Source: Ostreococcus lucimarinus (lineage: Eukaryota). Taken from it: a DNA stretch of 64,000 nucleotides. This document shows positions 25,206 to 59,241 of the stretch, piece by piece. The position numbers and the translations under genes were made by a program. Numbering within the stretch: position 1 is the stretch's first letter; each line of letters begins with the position of its first letter. The stretch lies in NCBI GenBank assembly GCA_000092065.1, contig CP000594.1; one strand, 5' to 3'. A model generated the notes under the pieces. That model saw only the letters and a list, made by a program, of their open reading frames with translations. It was not told where the DNA came from and did no database searches.

Positions 25206-25292
25206 TCTCGCACACCCGGGTGTCTGCGCGCGCGCGTCGAACCGCGAAATCGCGTCGAATCGCGCGTCGGCAGACGGCGCCGGTCGTCGTCG

Positions 25293-26975
25293 ATGGAGAA
25301 GACGCCCGCGCGGGCGACGTCGGAGGACGAAGGGATCGGGATCGTCACCCCGGGCGCGGTGAACGATGGGATCGGGGCGCGCAGACGCGCGAAGAGTGGG
25401 TCGGAGACGACGACGACGAACGCCGCGAACGAGAACGACGAGGACGATGACGATGATTCGGTGACGATGGTGGCGCGAGCGAACGCGCGGGCGCGCGAAC
25501 GCGCGAGGATGGAGGCGCTGAGAGATTGGACGGTGATGCGGGAAGACGAAGGGCGATCGTCGCCGCCGCCGGTGGCGATCGAAGGGCTGACGACGATTCG
25601 GAAGTATTGCGCGCTCGAGTTGGGCTTGCGCGTGGGCGAACGCGAGGACGATCCGGACATGTCGCACGCGCGCGAGCGCGTGTTCGATTTATTGTGGTAC
25701 ATACCGTTGGAATTGGAAAAGTTTTGCCTGTACGGGGGGTTGCTGTGCGCGGATGCGATTTTGGGGTTGTTTACGTCGCTGCCGGTGCGCGTAATGTCGC
25801 AGACGGTGCGTTTGGCGTGGTCGGTGTCGGGGCTGAAATCGAGAGACAAGACGTCGTCGAAGCGTCGTGCGTGGGGGATACACCCGTATGCGCGCGAACA
25901 TTTGAACGATGTCTTGTGGCTGTTCATGCTGTGCGTCGCGGTGACGTACACGCACATGCTTGACGTGAGCGTGATTTATCACTACATTCGAGGCCAAGAA
26001 GTGATCAAACTTTACATGGCGTGTCACGTCCTGGAGACGTTCGATAAGTTGTTGTGTTCGTTCAATAGCAACGTGCTCGATGCGCTACAAAACAGCGTGC
26101 ACGGATGCGTCAGCGCGGCGACGAACGGGTCAAAAGTTGATCAAGTGAAGTCTGGTGTCAGGCTCGCCGTGGATGTGATTTTGTCCACGAGCGCGACGGT
26201 GGCGCACACGTTCATCCTTCTCACGCATGCCGTGACACTTTCGGTGGCGATCAACAGTCACACGAACGCTATGTTGCTCGTGCTCATCTCGAATAATTTC
26301 GCGGAGATGAAAGGTCACGTGTTCAAGAAGCAGGATCCAGAGAAGTTGTTTGGCGTCAGTCGACTCGACGTCATCGAGCGAGTGCATCTCTGCGTGTGTC
26401 TGATGTTCGTCACCGCACAAAGAATCATGGCTGCTGGAAATCTTGAAATGGCGCTCACGCGTAAATTTTTGAACGACATAGCCTTGGTGATGGGTTCGGA
26501 GATTTTCGTCGACGTTGTGAAGCATTCATTCATGGCGAAATTCAACGGCTTGCGCCCAGGCGTTTATCGACGATTCTATCGACAAATCTGTCGAGATCAC
26601 GTGCACTTGACGCAGTCATACAAGATACATCAAGTCGTTGGATTCGTCCCACTCGCTCCGGCGGCGGTTATCGTTCGCGTCGTTCCAGGTCTATATCGAA
26701 CACTCAAGCAAAACGCGATGTCCTCCGACATTGTCACGCGAGGAGCTTTCGATCGTTTATTGGCACATTTTAGCGGCCGTGTCATCGGTCTCGGGGTCAT
26801 GTTCATCGCGATTTGTTTTAAGCTCGCGTTCGGTATCGCTATTTACACCTGGGGTGCGCGCTCGCTCGAACGCACATCGAAAGTAACGCCGAGCGCCGAG
26901 CGATGGGGCGCTAAGACGCCGGGCAAGGTGACTGGAAGCATGCCGAGATCGCCGCCTAGGATCAAGGTCAATTAG
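25293..26975 (+). CDS. TAPT1/EMP65-like multi-pass membrane protein (DUF747).
   Basis: The C-terminal 400 aa match DUF747 (ERVFDLLWYIPLELEKF...HAVTLSVAINSHTNAMLLVLISNNFAEMKGHVFKK...DVIERVHL). The track ORF from 24993 translates a (TCGA)n repeat; the likely ATG is near 25293. Confidence 0.75.
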   Translation: MEKTPARATSEDEGIGIVTPGAVNDGIGARRRAKSGSETTTTNAANENDEDDDDDSVTMVARANARARERARMEALRDWTVMREDEGRSSPPPVAIEGLTTIRKYCALELGLRVGEREDDPDMSHARERVFDLLWYIPLELEKFCLYGGLLCADAILGLFTSLPVRVMSQTVRLAWSVSGLKSRDKTSSKRRAWGIHPYAREHLNDVLWLFMLCVAVTYTHMLDVSVIYHYIRGQEVIKLYMACHVLETFDKLLCSFNSNVLDALQNSVHGCVSAATNGSKVDQVKSGVRLAVDVILSTSATVAHTFILLTHAVTLSVAINSHTNAMLLVLISNNFAEMKGHVFKKQDPEKLFGVSRLDVIERVHLCVCLMFVTAQRIMAAGNLEMALTRKFLNDIALVMGSEIFVDVVKHSFMAKFNGLRPGVYRRFYRQICRDHVHLTQSYKIHQVVGFVPLAPAAVIVRVVPGLYRTLKQNAMSSDIVTRGAFDRLLAHFSGRVIGLGVMFIAICFKLAFGIAIYTWGARSLERTSKVTPSAERWGAKTPGKVTGSMPRSPPRIKVN

Positions 26976-49734: not shown

Positions 49735-49739
49735 GTAGT

Positions 49740-49844
49740 GACAATGACGGGATTTGAACCCGCGCGCGTGAGCAGTGGAAAGTTTCGCGCGTCGATCCGC
49801 GTGCGGCCTAAATCCACCCCCTTAGACCACTCGGGCACATTGTC
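49740..49844 (-). tRNA. tRNA-Leu(UAG) with a roughly 20 to 26 nt intron.
   Basis: Minus strand: GACAATG TG CCCGAGTGGTCTAAGGG G GTGGA TTTAGG[intron]...TCCAC TGCTCACGCGCGC GGGTTCAAATCCCGT CATTGTC A. Perfect 7-bp acceptor stem, 3-bp D-stem and long variable arm (type II), loop UUUAGG (anticodon UAG) and A73 discriminator; followed by a T5 run. Confidence 0.7.
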
Positions 49845-52948: not shown

Positions 52949-54160
52949 TCACGCGCTCGAGGAAGACTTGACCAAAGCTTGCGCCTTGATAACGAGGTCT
53001 TTGTAGTCCTTACTCTTGCAAACTTGGAGCACGAGTTCGCGGAATGCCATGTCGACGTGTCCAGAGATTTTGGACGAAAGCAATTTCCACCGTCGCATGA
53101 TTCGAGACAAATCACGGCCCCGAACAGTCGACGCCCATGGCACAGCTTCGGCAGTCATCGATCTGTACTTGATGACGTTATTCAACATCTCGTAGTCTTG
53201 TTCGACATCCCACTCGCCCGTACTCGTCATTGGAGGCGAGATTTGATACCATCGTTGCAAACAAGCCTGCTCGTTTCGAGTGCCCATTTTGGCAGAGATG
53301 GTGACCCAGTTGATATTGTCGCGAAGTGAAAGGTGTTCGTTGCCCGTTCCCGGCCCGCATCCAGCTTCCGCGCCTCGCTGGCGGAAGTGTTCCTTCACGA
53401 GCTCACACAACTTGTCGGTTTCTTCCTGGCTCCAGTGCCCCGACTTTTTGTGTTCACCTCCCTTGGCGAGACGCCACTTGTCACGGCACGCCGACGCCGG
53501 CCTGCCGACTATTTCCGCGATCTTGGACCATTTCGGGCCCAGTTTCGTGTATTGCTCGAGCAAAGCTTCCGTCTCCTCCTTCTGCCACTTCCCCGACTTC
53601 GACTTTTTGTCCATGTTTCTCAAAATCCAGCCGTAAATTTGCTTGGCGTTTCTTGTCGGCGTCTCGCGAGCGACTTCGATAAACGCGCGTCGCTCAGATA
53701 GCGGTAAGTGTGCACCTTTACCTCCTTGCTTTTGACGACGGTTGAACAAGAACTCATAGTTGCCATTCATGAAATCTTCTGCGAGCCCGTGCTCGTTGGC
53801 CCATTTCTCGAGCGAGCGCTTCATCTGTTCCACCTCGAGCGTGCTCCACTGCCCGAATCTCTGCCCCGGAAACTTGACGTCCCACTCGCTACTATCAGAA
53901 ACAGTTTGCAATTCCTTCTCCGAAGCCTGCGCCACCGGCAAGTCTGCATCCTTTGACTTGTCGTGCATCAACGCCGCGTACGCCGCGTCGTCGTCCAGCT
54001 GTCGCTTGCTCAACGGCGCCCTGACGTCGAGTTCCGCCTTACGTTTCTTCGATTCCTTCTTCATGTGAGCCTTCTTAATCGTCTCAGTCGCGGCGGCGAT
54101 ATCAGCCAACGCGATCGTCGCCGACTTCTCCGCCGGCTCCTCGCCTCGCGTGCGAGCCAT
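52949..54160 (-). CDS. Myb/SANT-repeat DNA-binding protein (Reb1/TTF1/DMTF1-like).
   Basis: Tandem Myb-like repeats: GKWQKEETEALLEQYTKLGPKWSKIAEIVGRPASACRDKWR and GHWSQEETDKLCELVKEHF. Confidence 0.65.
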   Translation of the reverse strand: MARTRGEEPAEKSATIALADIAAATETIKKAHMKKESKKRKAELDVRAPLSKRQLDDDAAYAALMHDKSKDADLPVAQASEKELQTVSDSSEWDVKFPGQRFGQWSTLEVEQMKRSLEKWANEHGLAEDFMNGNYEFLFNRRQKQGGKGAHLPLSERRAFIEVARETPTRNAKQIYGWILRNMDKKSKSGKWQKEETEALLEQYTKLGPKWSKIAEIVGRPASACRDKWRLAKGGEHKKSGHWSQEETDKLCELVKEHFRQRGAEAGCGPGTGNEHLSLRDNINWVTISAKMGTRNEQACLQRWYQISPPMTSTGEWDVEQDYEMLNNVIKYRSMTAEAVPWASTVRGRDLSRIMRRWKLLSSKISGHVDMAFRELVLQVCKSKDYKDLVIKAQALVKSSSSA

Positions 54161-55160
54161 CGCGCGTTCGATGACGCCCCGAATCTTGCCAGTCAGCCGT
54201 CACCCTCGAACGTGCGATCGACGCGACGCTTCGACGCGTCCCGTCGACGCTGAGACCGCGCCTCGATCACGCGCGCGCGTCGTCGCCGACCGCGTCGACC
54301 CGCCGCGATCGTCGCGCGCGCCGAACGCGAGCTCGATTCGATTCGCCGGCGACGTTTCGCAGTCAACGGCGAGCGTTAATTGCGCCTCCTCGGTGCGCTC
54401 TTCGCGCGTTTCCCGGCGTGCGCGCGATTCTCGCGGTGCGTTGACGCGTGGGCGTCGGAAATGCGACGCGCCTCGATCGCGGGCGTCGGAAAGTGCGGCG
54501 CGCGCGTCGTTCGCGAGGGGTACCGAGTCGCCAAAATCGGTCGCGATGGCGCGTGCGTTCGCGAGCGACAGGGAGCCTGACTCCCGGGTGTTTTCGGATC
54601 GGCGAGTCAGGATTCAAAAACGAGTCCCCCCTCGAGGGGGCCTCGTTTTCGGGTGTTTCGAGAACGCCCGCGAGATAGACCCCCCCTCGCGGCGACCGAC
54701 CGACATCGCGTTTCGTGGACGTCGAATACGAGCGCGGGCGCGTTTGTGCGATAAATCTGGCGATGTCGGTCGGTCGCCGCGCGGTCGCCGCGCGCCGCTC
54801 GAGACGTGACTGGGAAAGGAGCTGGACTACACGCGACGACGACGACTACGGCGGGGCGGCTACGAGCGAGTCGACGCTCGAGCGCTCGCGCGCGCGTCGG
54901 CGCGCGTTCGCGAGGTAGGTTTCGCGTCTTCGCGCTCGTCGTCGTCGTCGTGGACTCGGACGCCGCGCTTCGCGAGCTCGCGCCTGGCGCGCGCGACGTC
55001 TCGCGCGAGCGCCTCGGCTTCGGCTTCGCACGTGGGGAACCAAATCACGCCTCGCGCGATGACGACGACGGAGTACAGCGCGAACGCAACGACGGCGTAG
55101 ATCGGGGCCTGTGGATTTGGATTCGATCGCGCGCGCGTGGGGTCAGCGTCTTCGTCTCGC

Positions 55161-55196
55161 GTTCGCGTTCGCGTTCGCGTTCGCGTTCGCGTTCGC
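55161..55196. repeat. (GTTCGC)6 hexanucleotide repeat.
   Basis: gttcgcgttcgcgttcgcgttcgcgttcgcgttcgc. Confidence 0.9.
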
Positions 55197-55621
55197 GCGC
55201 GTCGAGCGTCGTACCGCGACCACCAGCGCTCGCGCGCTCGGCGTGAGCTCGGCGTTGCGAAGCGTGGCGTACCACACGCTCAGTAATACCGCTCCAACGC
55301 CACCTGCGACATCGCGCGGGGTCAGTCGTCGTCGTCGTCGTCGGTGCGCGCGACGTCGAGACGGTGCGTCCGCGTCGATCATCATCGCGCTCGATCGCGA
55401 CGACGCGCGCACGCACCGAACTGCTGCGCGCGCGTCATACCGCGCGCGCGCGCTCTCGACGCGCGCGCGCGATCGCGCCTCCAACGCGCGCCGCGTCGCG
55501 AAGTGCGGGCGACGAATCGACGACGCATCGCGACGCAACCACCGCGGAATCGCGCGATCGGCGACGTCACACGACGACCCCACCCGCGCGCGCGTCGACG
55601 CGACGCGCGAGCGACGCGAAT

Positions 55622-56485
55622 ATGTCGGACGCGCTCGACGCGCGCGCGGTGCCGCGAACGGGACGATATCGAGTGCGAAAACGCGTCGCATCGCGCGTCG
55701 TCGTCGCCCTGGTGGTGGTGTCGACGGCGATGTTTTCGCGCGTCGCGCGCGCGCACGGCGTGCCCGCGGCGGTGACGGCGGCGGTGCGAGGTGACCTGGC
55801 GTGGTTCGATGACGCCGCGCTGGCGTACGACGAGGAAGAGTTGAAGACGATGCTCGACCGACAGGAGAGCGACCACGGGTACGGCGCGCTCGTGACGGCG
55901 GTGGCGCGCGGCGACGAGACGACGGCGAAAAAAGTGCTCTCGATGGGTGCGGACGCGCGGAGCGAGGATCACGAGGGGCACACGCCGATGGATATGGCGG
56001 CGGTGTCGGGGAAGGTGAGCATGGTGAAATTGTTGCGCGAACACGGGGTGGACGCGGGGGCGCGAGCGCGAGACGGATTTACGGCGCTGCAGCGCGCGAC
56101 GTGGGGACAGACGGACGCGCACGCGGAGGTCGTGCGGTATCTCGTGCGCGAGTGCGGGATGGACGTGGATGAAACGGACGCCATGGGGATGAGCGCGACG
56201 TTCAGGGCGGTGGATCGCGAGAATACGTTCATGCTGAAGATATTGTTAGAGCTCGGGGCGGATCCAAACTTTGCGAACAAGCGCGGCGACTCGTTGCTCG
56301 CCACGGCGGTTCGTAAGCAAAACGCCGAACTAGTGTCGATGCTCTTGGAGGCGAACGCGGACGTCACGAAAGGAGATTCGAAAGGGCGAAACTTGCGCAA
56401 GCTCGCCAAGCAGCTTCGATCGAAAAAGGTGCTAAATTTAATCTCCGAGGCGTACGCCTCGGCGATGGGTTCCGCCGAGTTGTAA
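55622..56485 (+). CDS. Ankyrin-repeat protein with an N-terminal signal anchor.
   Basis: ATG at about 55622 (MSDALDARAV...); TM VVVALVVVSTAMF; ANK repeats (GHTPMDMAAVSGKVSMVKLLREHGVD, GFTALQRATWGQ..., GDSLLATAVRKQNAELVSMLLEANAD). Confidence 0.7.
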   Translation: MSDALDARAVPRTGRYRVRKRVASRVVVALVVVSTAMFSRVARAHGVPAAVTAAVRGDLAWFDDAALAYDEEELKTMLDRQESDHGYGALVTAVARGDETTAKKVLSMGADARSEDHEGHTPMDMAAVSGKVSMVKLLREHGVDAGARARDGFTALQRATWGQTDAHAEVVRYLVRECGMDVDETDAMGMSATFRAVDRENTFMLKILLELGADPNFANKRGDSLLATAVRKQNAELVSMLLEANADVTKGDSKGRNLRKLAKQLRSKKVLNLISEAYASAMGSAEL

Positions 56486-58248: not shown

Positions 58249-59241
58249 TCAGTCATGAGCTATCAAGTTTCGAACGACTTCTAAGTGCGCGTCGCGGTAA
58301 CCTTCTCTGTGCGCTACCCATAACGGCAGGAACTCGCGCATGGAGATCTCGCCGTCGTTCGCTCGCTGGAACTCGAGCGCGACGTCGACGCCGAATGACT
58401 CGTCGACGTCTGGGATGACGACTTCGTTCAGCGCCTCGGCGTACCGATCGGAGCCTGGACATTTGCGAGCGCACGCGTACTTCAAACACTCCAACTGTCC
58501 ATACTTGGCGGCTCCCTCGCACGTCCGCTTGTCCCAACAACACCCGTTCTCGCGCGCGTATCGCAAACAGTCCAAGTGTCCATTCGAGGCGGCATGCGCG
58601 CACGTCACCTCGTTCCAAGGACACCCGTTCTCGTGCGCGTATCGCAAACAGTCCAAGTGTCCATTCGAGACGGCAAACAGGCAAGTCCACTCGTTCCAAG
58701 GACACCCGTGCTCGCGCGCGTATCGCAAACAGTCCAAGTGTCCATTCAAGGCGGCATCACGGCACGTCCACACGTCCCAAGGACACCCGTGCTCGTGCGC
58801 GTATTGCAAAGATTGCAAATTGCCGAAACCAGCGGCATACGCGCACGTCCATTGGTCCCACGGCGCCCCGTGCTCGTGCGCGAACTTCATACAAACCGAA
58901 CCTGGAATGCGCGTAGCCCGCGTGCACGGCGCCGCATATTCTGGAAAGACTCTCCTCTCGTCGTCCGCTTCAAAATACCCGCGACCGTGGCCAATCGAGT
59001 GCCACTCGACGCCATCGCGTCTCAAATCTTGTAAAAACGACGCCACCGCATCCCTTGCATCGCTCGAGACGTCCTCACGCTCGAGTTCACCGATGAGTCT
59101 CTCGTAGACTTCCTCGCGCAGTATGGCCTTCGTGAGGTCCACCCCGCCCGCCCGCACATGCTCGAGTTCAGCAATGTACGCACGCTCGAGTGCGTCGTAG
59201 ACTTCATTCTGCCTCCGCGCCTCTTCCTCGTCGAACTCCAT
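58249..59241 (-). CDS. Ankyrin-like repeat protein built from tandem 33-aa 'HGCPW' repeats.
   Basis: Five or more repeats of YAHEHGCPW(D/N)xWTC..AA.NGHLDCLRYA, encoded by 99-bp direct nucleotide repeats. Confidence 0.7.
   Translation of the reverse strand: MEFDEEEARRQNEVYDALERAYIAELEHVRAGGVDLTKAILREEVYERLIGELEREDVSSDARDAVASFLQDLRRDGVEWHSIGHGRGYFEADDERRVFPEYAAPCTRATRIPGSVCMKFAHEHGAPWDQWTCAYAAGFGNLQSLQYAHEHGCPWDVWTCRDAALNGHLDCLRYAREHGCPWNEWTCLFAVSNGHLDCLRYAHENGCPWNEVTCAHAASNGHLDCLRYARENGCCWDKRTCEGAAKYGQLECLKYACARKCPGSDRYAEALNEVVIPDVDESFGVDVALEFQRANDGEISMREFLPLWVAHREGYRDAHLEVVRNLIAHD
58480..58900. repeat. 99-bp tandem direct repeats (about 4 copies, roughly 85 to 90% identical) encoding the HGCPW ankyrin-like modules.
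   Basis: A recurring tatcgcaaacagtccaagtgtccattc(g/a)ag(g/a)cggca....cgt.cac.tcgt.ccaaggacacccgt(t/g)ctcg(c/t)gcgcg unit. Confidence 0.8.

What the first reader, a model, noticed from the sequence alone, without database searches (positions are those of the whole stretch)
54161..55621. Unusually long (1.46 kb) structured spacer between divergent Myb and ankyrin genes
Elsewhere in the window divergent gene starts are 100 to 450 bp apart; here the gap is 1.46 kb with no convincing ORF. It contains a GC hairpin on an XhoI-centred palindrome (cccccTCGAggggg) and two stem-loops, each followed by a GUUUUCGG(G) element (54548 to 54570 and 54600 to 54640), an arrangement like snRNA Sm sites or a terminator. 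It also holds a (GTTCGC)6 repeat and a short minus-strand ORF with a TM-like segment (IYAVVAFALYSVVVIARGVIWF). It may hide an ncRNA (snRNA or snoRNA-like) or a small tail-anchored protein gene with unrecognised exons.
Basis: seen in the sequence. Interest (0 to 1): 0.5.

Follow-up and report, generated by a model that had tools for sequence, protein, structure and literature searches.

The report
Missed three-exon DPM3 gene, not spacer
The "empty" 1.46 kb between the Myb and ankyrin genes holds an ordinary small three-exon gene for DPM3, a membrane subunit of dolichol-phosphate-mannose synthase; the remaining 700 bp is untranslated and promoter DNA that carries a short motif conserved upstream of the Myb gene.

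Summary
The region is not a spacer.

**The gene.** The minus strand carries a three-exon DPM3 gene (55438-55417, 55303-55215, 55108-54860) encoding 119 aa. It matches Pfam PF08285 at E 1.3e-18.
- Both GT-AG introns are precisely absent from an RNA-derived public contig and from two transcript-derived proteins.
- Exon 2 is 89 nt in all five species modelled, and intron positions and synteny (ankyrin <-> DPM3 -> Myb) match in the four related Ostreococcus-like picoalgae.
- The (GTTCGC)6 repeat is a microsatellite in intron 2 whose copy number varies between strains.
- The true divergent gap to the ankyrin gene is 183 bp, which is normal.

**The remaining 699 bp (54161-54859).** This stretch folds unusually well (z about -5 to -6).
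- No Rfam family matches it.
- The XhoI hairpin is absent from the orthologous spacers.
- The 25-nt inverted repeat is specific to this strain (7 clustered substitutions), so an ncRNA gene is unlikely.

**The conserved motif.** It lies upstream of the Myb gene in 9 of the 10 species examined. The Myb protein is Reb1-like, and the motif resembles the yeast Reb1 site TTACCCG. Autoregulation is a plausible idea but was not tested.

The parts
55417..55438 (-). DPM3 exon 1 (ATG at 55438-55436; encodes MTRAQQF + first base of G)
   Evidence: Splice model. The RNA contig L001 block boundary falls here. MTRAQ.F is conserved in four other species.
55304..55416 (-). DPM3 intron 1, 113 nt: GTGCGT ... CTGACCCC ... 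CAG
   Evidence: Precisely absent from RNA-derived contig L001 and from proteins P0001 and P0002.
55215..55303 (-). DPM3 exon 2, 89 nt (first membrane helix)
   Evidence: Exon 2 is 89 nt in all five species modelled.
55109..55214 (-). DPM3 intron 2, 106 nt: GTACGA ... CTGACCCC ... CAG. It contains the (GTTCGC)6 microsatellite at 55161-55196.
   Evidence: Absent from L001. The repeat number differs between strains: read-through ORFs P0003, P0004 and P0005 show 4 to 6 units or a different unit.
54860..55108 (-). DPM3 exon 3, coding part including the stop codon.
   Evidence: PF08285, 67.4 bits against a cut-off of 25. tblastn hits in L004, L007, L008 and L010.
55439..55621 (.). 183-bp divergent promoter and 5'-UTR region shared by DPM3 (minus) and the ankyrin gene (plus)
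   Evidence: ATG positions. The transcript-derived ORF P0002 extends 24 codons upstream of the DPM3 ATG.
54161..54859 (-). 699-nt interval between the DPM3 stop and the Myb ATG. Inferred content: DPM3 3' UTR, Myb promoter and a long Myb 5' UTR.
   Evidence: Colinear with RNA contig L001, with no further intron. No coding conservation by tblastx. The orthologous intervals in L004, L007, L008 and L010, which are bounded by the DPM3 stop, are also long at about 480-1130 nt. An O. mediterraneus Myb transcript has a 328-nt 5' UTR.
54650..54658 (-). Conserved motif, copy 1: (G)AAACACCCG(A)
54585..54595 (-). Conserved motif, copy 2: GAAAACACCCG(GGAGTC).
   Evidence: ACCCGGGAGTC is identical in L009 and L007.
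54617..54649 (.). XhoI-centred palindromic hairpin, 13 pairs. It includes the box GGCCCCCTCGAG, which follows the motif in L005 and L006 as well.
54685..54784 (.). Inverted repeat with 25-nt arms (54685-54709 and 54760-54784) and a 50-nt loop. It is specific to this strain.
   Evidence: L001 and L002 differ at 7 of 12 clustered positions (54691-54702) and keep only a 7-8 bp stem.
52949..54160 (-). Downstream neighbour: Reb1/DMTF1-like Myb protein, 403 aa
   Evidence: Pfam Myb_DNA-bind_6. The best solved relative is S. pombe Reb1 5EYB, E 5e-11 over 173 residues. [quoted passage not shown]
55622..56485 (+). Divergent neighbour: ankyrin-repeat protein, 287 aa
   Evidence: Pfam Ank_2, E 1.6e-30.

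Best explanation
**Shown: the gene.** The interval is not a spacer. Its upper 580 bp is a small nuclear gene on the minus strand with three exons and two short GT-AG introns. It encodes a 119-aa orthologue of DPM3. DPM3 is the two-helix ER-membrane subunit that, in organisms with a human-type DPM1, tethers and stabilises the catalytic subunit of dolichol-phosphate-mannose synthase through its C-terminal cytosolic helix; that role is established family knowledge and was not tested here. With this gene in place, the ankyrin gene has an ordinary divergent partner 183 bp away.

**Inferred: the remaining 699 bp (54161-54859).** This is non-coding and is best read as three parts: the DPM3 3' UTR, the promoter of the Myb gene, and a long Myb 5' UTR.

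**The hairpins.** They are real, but they evolve fast. One arose or was perfected in this strain by a clustered, template-switch-like mutation. They are most likely by-products of palindrome-prone, CG-rich DNA.

**The conserved motif.**
- Shown: it tracks the promoter of the Reb1-like Myb gene across Mamiellophyceae.
- Inferred, about 35% likely: it is the binding site of that Reb1-like protein itself. It could then act in autoregulation, as for yeast REB1. It could also shield the Myb promoter from read-through from DPM3, as in Reb1 roadblock termination.
For: **DPM3 gene.**
- The spliced ORF gives PF08285 DPM3 at E 1.3e-18, 67.4 bits against a cut-off of 25, covering profile positions 1-90 of 90.
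- Logan contig L001 aligns to the window in three blocks. Positions 55304-55416 and 55109-55214 are missing, while the contig is colinear with both flanking genes.
- P0001 (119 aa, 98% identical) and the metatranscriptome ORF P0002 carry both exon junctions.
- Orthologous three-exon models exist in L004, L007, L008 and L010. Exon 2 is 89 nt in every case, introns are GT-AG, and all hit PF08285.
- Synteny RPL9-SSNA1-Ank-DPM3-Myb-D27 is conserved.
- The AF2 model has helices 3-24 and 29-84.

**Spacer.**
- No Rfam hit and no tblastx conservation.
- The XhoI hairpin is absent from the orthologous spacers.
- The arm at 54691-54702 differs at 7 of 12 positions in L001 and L002, against 4 differences in the other 687 nt.

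**Motif.**
- A[AC]ACCCG[CG] occurs 11 times in 4.9 kb of seven orthologous spacers, at least once in each. It occurs 10 times in 113.9 kb of flanks.
- In an a-priori test, it lies at -134 in L011 and at -248 and -200 in L013 (both Micromonas-like), where DPM3 is not the upstream neighbour.
- Orientation differs between species.
- The Myb protein's best PDB match is Reb1.
- The Reb1p site is TTACCCG(G)/CGGGTAA, and mutating CCC abolishes binding (PMC5052057, PMC3790011). REB1 is autoregulated (Wang & Warner 1998, as cited in PMC3790011).
- An O. mediterraneus Myb transcript has a 328-nt 5' UTR without the motif.
Against: **DPM3.**
- No biochemical evidence is available.
- No solved structure is detectable by sequence.
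- The C-terminal 30 residues are low-complexity and not conserved.
- Whether this genome has the matching TM-less DPM1 was not examined.
- The library type of SRR28369218 is not stated. That it is RNA is inferred from the missing introns.

**Spacer.**
- Transcript ends were not mapped. The split into 3' UTR, promoter and 5' UTR rests on analogy with one transcript from another species.

**Motif.**
- It was defined post hoc in seven species, so that P-value is inflated.
- The independent test has only three loci, and one of them (L012) has no hit.
- Window copy 1 (AACACCCGA) departs from the strict pattern.
- The motif differs from the yeast site in the 5' half (AAA or ACA instead of TTA).
- Many instances also contain a CGCG core, which other factors could read.
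- The motif is rare elsewhere in the window, unlike the sites of a yeast-type general regulatory factor.
Confidence: 0.9

Rival explanations
1. A structured non-coding RNA gene (snRNA, snoRNA-like or another small RNA) lies at about 54540-54800. The stem-loops plus 'GUUUUCGG' would act as Sm-like or terminator elements.
For: - The segment folds very stably on both strands (z -6.1 and -5.1).
- It is present in an RNA-derived contig.
- On the minus strand the XhoI hairpin is followed by TTTTT.
Against: - No Rfam family matches at gathering scores or at E <= 10. The only matches are weak miRNA-hairpin look-alikes driven by the inverted repeat.
- The 13-bp hairpin is absent from six orthologous spacers.
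- The 25-nt inverted repeat is reduced to 7-8 bp in two other strains of the same species.
- The only conserved element is a 9-12 nt motif that occurs on either strand in different species and that stays with the Myb promoter where DPM3 is elsewhere.
- Equal stability on both strands is what a DNA palindrome gives.
Confidence: 0.04
2. The palindromic hairpins are functional 3'-end or termination signals for DPM3, or bidirectional insulators between DPM3 and Myb, acting through RNA or DNA structure.
For: - The XhoI hairpin lies about 210 nt downstream of the DPM3 stop.
- It looks like an intrinsic terminator in both orientations.
- The spacer is long in the four species where the DPM3 stop bounds it.
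Against: - The hairpin is not conserved outside this species.
- RNA contig L001 runs through it without interruption.
- RNA polymerase II is not known to use hairpin-plus-U terminators (established knowledge).
- The neighbouring inverted repeat is polymorphic within the species.
Confidence: 0.06
3. The conserved A(A/C)ACCCG(G/C) motif is a promoter element of the Myb gene, but it is read by a different factor (for example a CGCG-box/CAMTA-type or another GC-box binder) and not by the Reb1-like protein itself.
For: - The motif is conserved and promoter-linked.
- Many instances read CCCGCGTGT, which has a CGCG core.
- The 5' half differs from the yeast Reb1 site.
- The motif is rare elsewhere in the 64-kb window.
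Against: - Instances without CGCG (ACCCGGGAGT, ACCCGGAAGT, ACCCGGATT) share only the ACCCG core. That core is common to the Reb1 site TTACCCG and the Dmp1 site CCCG(G/T)ATGT (PMC5052057, PMC3161675).
- The gene it precedes encodes a protein of that family.
- Precedent exists for REB1 autoregulation (cited in PMC3790011).
Confidence: 0.4
4. The inverted repeats mark a miniature transposable-element remnant inserted between DPM3 and Myb.
For: Arms of 25 nt flank a 50-nt core, and the arms differ between strains.
Against: - The difference between strains is a cluster of substitutions inside one arm, not presence versus absence of an element.
- No target-site duplication is visible.
- No other copy of the associated 9-mer AAACACCCG cluster, and no hairpin partner, was seen elsewhere in the window.
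- Genome-wide copy number was not tested.
Confidence: 0.03

Closest known systems
DPM3 (dolichol-phosphate mannosyltransferase subunit 3; Pfam PF08285; human DPM3, plant DPMS3)
   Same: - Full-length match to the family profile.
- Small size: about 90 conserved residues.
- Two N-terminal hydrophobic helices, an F-P-x-C turn, then an amphipathic C-terminal helix.
   Different: - A roughly 30-residue low-complexity, charged C-terminal tail that is not conserved even among Ostreococcus-like species.
- Function with DPM1 and DPM2 was not examined here.
Yeast Reb1p binding site TTACCCG(G), with REB1 autoregulation and Reb1 roadblock termination
   Same: - The core ACCCG(G) is identical.
- The site lies upstream of a gene encoding a Reb1-family Myb protein.
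- It sits between two tandem genes, where a roadblock would protect the downstream promoter (PMC5052057; PMC3790011 citing Wang & Warner 1998).
   Different: - The 5' flank is AAA or ACA, not TTA.
- Binding was not tested.
- The motif is rare elsewhere in the window, so there is no sign of a genome-wide general regulatory factor role.
Dmp1/DMTF1 site CCCG(G/T)ATGT
   Same: - CCCG followed by a purine-rich or TGT tail: CCCGGAAGT, CCCGGATTT, CCCGCGTGT and CCCGGGAGT match 7-8 of 9 positions (PMC3161675).
[quoted passage not shown]
   Different: - There is no exact match to the nonamer.
- The PDB sequence match to the DMTF1 fragment is much weaker (E 0.0033) than the match to Reb1.
Template-switch (inverted-repeat-generating) mutation clusters
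   Same: Seven substitutions within 12 nt turn one arm into the exact complement of the other arm 50 nt away. The rest of the spacer differs at 0.6%.
   Different: Polarity (gain in this strain versus loss in the others) cannot be set without an outgroup that aligns.

Membership tests
DPM3 (PF08285) | Sequence match to the family profile above the curated threshold, over the full length | tested here: met
   67.4 bits against a cut-off of 25, E 1.3e-18, profile positions 1-90 of 90. All five species' models match.
DPM3 (PF08285) | Two N-terminal membrane helices followed by a cytosolic C-terminal helix | tested here: met
   Hydrophobic stretches at residues 8-22 and 38-60. The AF2 model of P0001 has helices 3-24 and 29-84, mean pLDDT 71, from a single sequence and therefore of moderate confidence.
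DPM3 (PF08285) | Expressed, spliced mRNA with an intact reading frame | tested here: met
   Both introns are absent from L001. P0001 and P0002 carry both junctions.
DPM3 (PF08285) | Orthologues in related genomes with the same gene structure and position | tested here: met
   L004, L007, L008 and L010: same synteny, 89-nt exon 2, same intron phases.
DPM3 (PF08285) | Binds and stabilises a TM-less DPM1 and is needed for Dol-P-Man synthase activity | not testable with these tools
   This needs biochemistry or genetics. Whether the genome has DPM1 was not examined, because it lies outside the window.
Spliceosomal snRNA / snoRNA (Rfam families) | Match to a curated covariance model | tested here: not met
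   No family reaches its gathering score in the region. At E <= 10 there are only hairpin look-alikes and two trypanosomatid H/ACA models at E 7-9.
Spliceosomal snRNA / snoRNA (Rfam families) | Structure conserved in related genomes | tested here: not met
   The hairpins are absent from orthologous spacers. One is polymorphic within the species.
Tail-anchored membrane protein | A single membrane helix at the extreme C terminus | tested here: not met
   The helix lies at residues 38-60 of 119, is preceded by another hydrophobic helix and is followed by about 60 soluble residues.
Reb1/TTF1/DMTF1-type Myb protein (the downstream gene) | Sequence similarity across the Myb-associated and Myb-repeat DNA-binding region | tested here: met
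   S. pombe Reb1 5EYB, E 5e-11, query residues 153-325. Pfam Myb_DNA-bind_6, E 1.8e-18.
Reb1-type binding site (the conserved motif) | Bound by the Reb1-like protein in a CCC-dependent way | not testable with these tools
   Only sequence resemblance (the ACCCG core) and conserved position upstream of the gene are shown.

The most novel reading that the evidence does not exclude
The two 'GUUUUCGG' elements are the window's copies of a Reb1-type site, A(A/C)ACCCG(G/C), kept upstream of the Reb1-like Myb gene in nine of the ten species examined across Mamiellophyceae. Through these sites the protein would regulate its own promoter and block read-through from the upstream gene. That would make this a green-lineage counterpart of yeast REB1 autoregulation and roadblock termination in an extremely compact genome.
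Probability: 0.3. Interest if true: 0.45.

Novelty: already known. Interest (0 to 1): 0.2.

Why it matters
The main value is corrective. A stretch that looks like an anomalously long, structured spacer is an ordinary small gene that single-ORF reading misses, because its exons are 22, 89 and 249 nt. Prokaryote-style gene calls in public metagenome records mis-translate it as intron read-through ORFs (P0003-P0005). DPM3 is needed for Dol-P-mannose supply to GPI anchors and to N- and O-mannosylation. Its presence therefore matters for reconstructions of glycosylation pathways in picoalgae, where small subunits are easily scored as absent.

The by-product is a short motif conserved upstream of a Reb1-like gene from Ostreococcus-like algae to Micromonas. 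It gives a directly testable hypothesis about autoregulation and promoter insulation in very gene-dense eukaryotic genomes.

Tried and rejected
- **Rfam.** I scanned the whole window at gathering scores and 54000-55800 at E <= 10. Nothing was credible.
- **ARAGORN.** It found no tRNA, although Rfam finds an intron-containing tRNA at 49739-49844.
- **blastn-short between orthologous spacers.** The output was swamped by CG-rich low-complexity matches. I replaced it with a k-mer presence test.
- **tblastx between spacers.** No hidden coding conservation.
- **Hairpin scan of orthologous spacers.** The window's hairpins are not shared.
- **PDB sequence search with DPM3.** No relative was found.
- **NCBIfam.** No match, as expected for eukaryotic proteins.
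- **Structure prediction of the window's own spliced protein.** I used P0001, which is 98% identical, in its place.
- **Species identification from a D27-like protein.** Only unnamed environmental hits appeared at high identity. The organism can only be placed as an Ostreococcus-like Mamiellophyceae, from named Myb orthologues: O. mediterraneus 53%, Mamiellaceae sp. RCC2288 49%, Micromonas commoda 41%.
- **Considered and dropped.**
  - E2F site: the pattern does not fit TTTSSCGC.
  - Telomerase RNA: I saw no CCCTAAA-type template when reading the sequence.
  - A 5'-UTR intron in Myb: L001 is colinear.

Full report
**1. The observation**

The window is GC-rich and gene-dense, with CG-rich intergenic DNA. 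The Myb ORF (52949-54160, minus) and the ankyrin ORF (55622-56485, plus) are real and have clear Pfam matches.
- The XhoI-centred hairpin lies at 54617-54649 and has 13 pairs.
- A small stem-loop at 54571-54585 is followed by GGGTGTTTTCGG.
- (GTTCGC)6 lies at 55161-55196.
- The hydrophobic minus-strand peptide is present.
- The segment 54540-54800 folds much better than shuffled sequence on both strands: z -6.1 and -5.1.

Simple repeats like (GTTCGC)6 are very common in this window; Tandem Repeats Finder returns 246 rows, some of them overlapping calls of the same array.

**2. What fills the upper part of the 'spacer'**

Reading the minus strand shows canonical splice signals around the hydrophobic ORF. 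Joining 55438-55417, 55303-55215 and 55108-54860 removes two introns. They are 113 nt (GTGCGT...CTGACCCC...CAG) and 106 nt (GTACGA...CTGACCCC...CAG). The result is an open frame of 119 codons.

The product matches Pfam DPM3 (PF08285) end to end: E 1.3e-18, 67.4 bits against a cut-off of 25.

Public sequences confirm the splicing.
- P0001 (119 aa, 98% identical) and P0002 (a metatranscriptome ORF) contain both junctions.
- The contig that encodes P0001 (L001, Logan SRR28369218) aligns to the window in three blocks. Exactly 55304-55416 and 55109-55214 are missing, and the contig is colinear with the ankyrin gene on one side and the Myb gene on the other.
- That this contig derives from RNA is inferred from the missing introns.

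Prokaryote-style gene calls on metagenome contigs translate the same locus as intron read-through ORFs (P0003-P0005). This shows how the gene is missed.

An AF2 model of P0001 has helices 3-24 and 29-84 (pLDDT 71, single sequence).

The (GTTCGC)6 repeat sits in intron 2, and its copy number varies between strains.

**3. Conservation of the gene**

The Myb protein has orthologues at 41-67% identity in environmental contigs. Named members are Ostreococcus mediterraneus (53%), Mamiellaceae sp. RCC2288 (49%) and Micromonas commoda (41%). The window therefore comes from an Ostreococcus-like member of the Mamiellophyceae. I could not name the species.

In L003/L004, L007, L008 and L010 the order RPL9-SSNA1-ankyrin-[gap]-Myb-D27 is the same. 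In each gap tblastn finds DPM3 exons. Best-scoring three-exon models have the following features.
- Exon 1 encodes MTRAQxF.
- Exon 2 is exactly 89 nt in every species.
- Introns are GT-AG and vary in length (96-183 nt).
- All five proteins hit PF08285.

**4. The remaining 699 bp (54161-54859)**

- Rfam gives nothing at gathering scores. At E <= 10 it gives only hairpin look-alikes.
- tblastx between orthologous spacers gives nothing.
- RNA contig L001 is colinear through the spacer, so no further intron is removed.
- The 13-pair XhoI hairpin has no counterpart in six orthologous spacers.
- The 25-nt inverted repeat (54685-54709 and 54760-54784) is specific to this strain. L001 and L002 are the same species and 98.4% identical over the spacer. 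They differ at 7 of the 12 positions 54691-54702 and keep only a 7-8 bp stem, while just 4 differences fall in the other 687 nt. A cluster of changes that makes one arm the exact complement of the other is what a template-switch mutation produces. It argues against selection on this structure.
- Equal fold stability on both strands is what DNA palindromes give.

I conclude that an ncRNA gene is unlikely.

**5. What is conserved in the spacer**

I ran a k-mer presence test on seven orthologous spacers against 114 kb of flanking sequence. AAAACCCG, ACCCGCGT and CCCGCGTG each occur in 5 of the 7 spacers but only 1-4 times in the flanks.

Aligned instances give A(A/C)ACCCG(G/C), often continuing as GTGT or GAGT and followed by a GGCCCCCT box. 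The window's two copies are 54650-54658 and 54585-54595 on the minus strand.

The pattern A[AC]ACCCG[CG] occurs 11 times in 4.9 kb of spacers, at least once in each species, and 10 times in 113.9 kb of flanks. That statistic is post hoc and uses a mixed coding and non-coding background.

As an a-priori test I fetched three more distant, Micromonas-like loci.
- The pattern lies at -134 of the Myb ATG in L011.
- It lies at -248 and -200 in L013.
- It is absent from L012.
- About 0.16-0.27 hits were expected in total.
- In L011, DPM3 is 4.3 kb away on the other strand.

So the motif belongs to the Myb promoter and not to the DPM3 3' end. Its orientation differs between species, which fits a DNA site better than an RNA element.

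An O. mediterraneus Myb transcript has a 328-nt 5' UTR that lacks the motif. By analogy, the window's copies at -425 and -497 would lie roughly 100-170 bp upstream of the transcription start. This step is inference.

**6. Mechanism**

Shown: the gene, its splicing and its conservation. Also shown: the motif's conservation and its linkage to the Myb promoter.

Established knowledge of the family, not tested here: DPM3 anchors and stabilises DPM1 at the ER membrane.

Inferred: the motif may be bound by the downstream protein itself.
- The best solved relative of the Myb protein is S. pombe Reb1 (5EYB, E 5e-11 over 173 residues).
- Yeast Reb1p binds TTACCCG(G)/CGGGTAA, and a CCC->CAA change abolishes binding (PMC5052057, PMC3790011).
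- REB1 is autoregulated (Wang & Warner 1998, as cited in PMC3790011).
- Reb1p bound between genes terminates read-through polymerase II (PMC5052057).
- The related Dmp1 binds CCCG(G/T)ATGT (PMC3161675).

The shared ACCCG core and the position between two tandem genes make autoregulation or roadblock a reasonable hypothesis. I rate it at about 0.3-0.35. A different factor reading the same motif is at least as likely.

**7. Comparison and verdict**

The finding is explained by a member of a well-known family whose protein is already in public catalogues with a precomputed DPM3 domain. It is therefore not novel. The hairpins are real but unconstrained. The conserved promoter motif is a modest, testable by-product. 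Interest is low (0.2).

Noticed in passing
window 54685-54709 compared with L001 1600-1625 and L002 10680-10705: Seven substitutions are clustered in 12 nt between strains of one species. In the window strain they make a perfect 25-nt inverted repeat, which is a template-switch-like mutation signature. The rest of the spacer differs at only 0.6%.
   Followed up: partly
window 25209-25226: A palindromic copy of the same motif (GCACACCCGGGTGTCTGC) lies in another GC-rich stretch with no long ORF, next to a (CGAT)n array and about 70 bp upstream of a possible ATG at 25294. It may be a second target of the same factor.
   Followed up: partly
window 49739-49844 (minus strand): Rfam finds a tRNA (48 bits) with a 29-nt insertion in the anticodon loop, which looks like an intron. 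ARAGORN reported no tRNA in the window.
   Followed up: no
window 58470-58893, compared with L002 5207-6918: The gene at 58249-59241, with repeated 'NGHLDCLRYAHENGCPW' units, matches the other strain's contig many times at 78-86% identity over a longer stretch. This suggests that the number of repeat units in this gene differs between strains.
   Followed up: no
window 55161-55196; proteins P0003, P0004, P0005: The hexanucleotide microsatellite in DPM3 intron 2 varies in copy number or unit between strains: 4, 5 or 6 'AN' units, or 'RT' units, in the read-through ORFs.
   Followed up: partly
L005 323-390 and L006 132-199: In a related species the motif is part of a 38-nt tandem duplication (AAAAAAACCCGCGTGTAC[GA]GG...), and the second copy is followed by GGCCCCCTCGAG, as in the window. 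This hints at a bipartite element of ACCCG plus a GGCCCCCT box.
   Followed up: partly
L004, L007, L008, L010 (interval from DPM3 stop to Myb ATG): The spacer between the tandem DPM3 and Myb genes is long in each of these species, at about 480-1130 nt. Such lengths look long for so compact a genome and are consistent with a long Myb 5' UTR (328 nt in an O. mediterraneus transcript, L014).
   Followed up: partly
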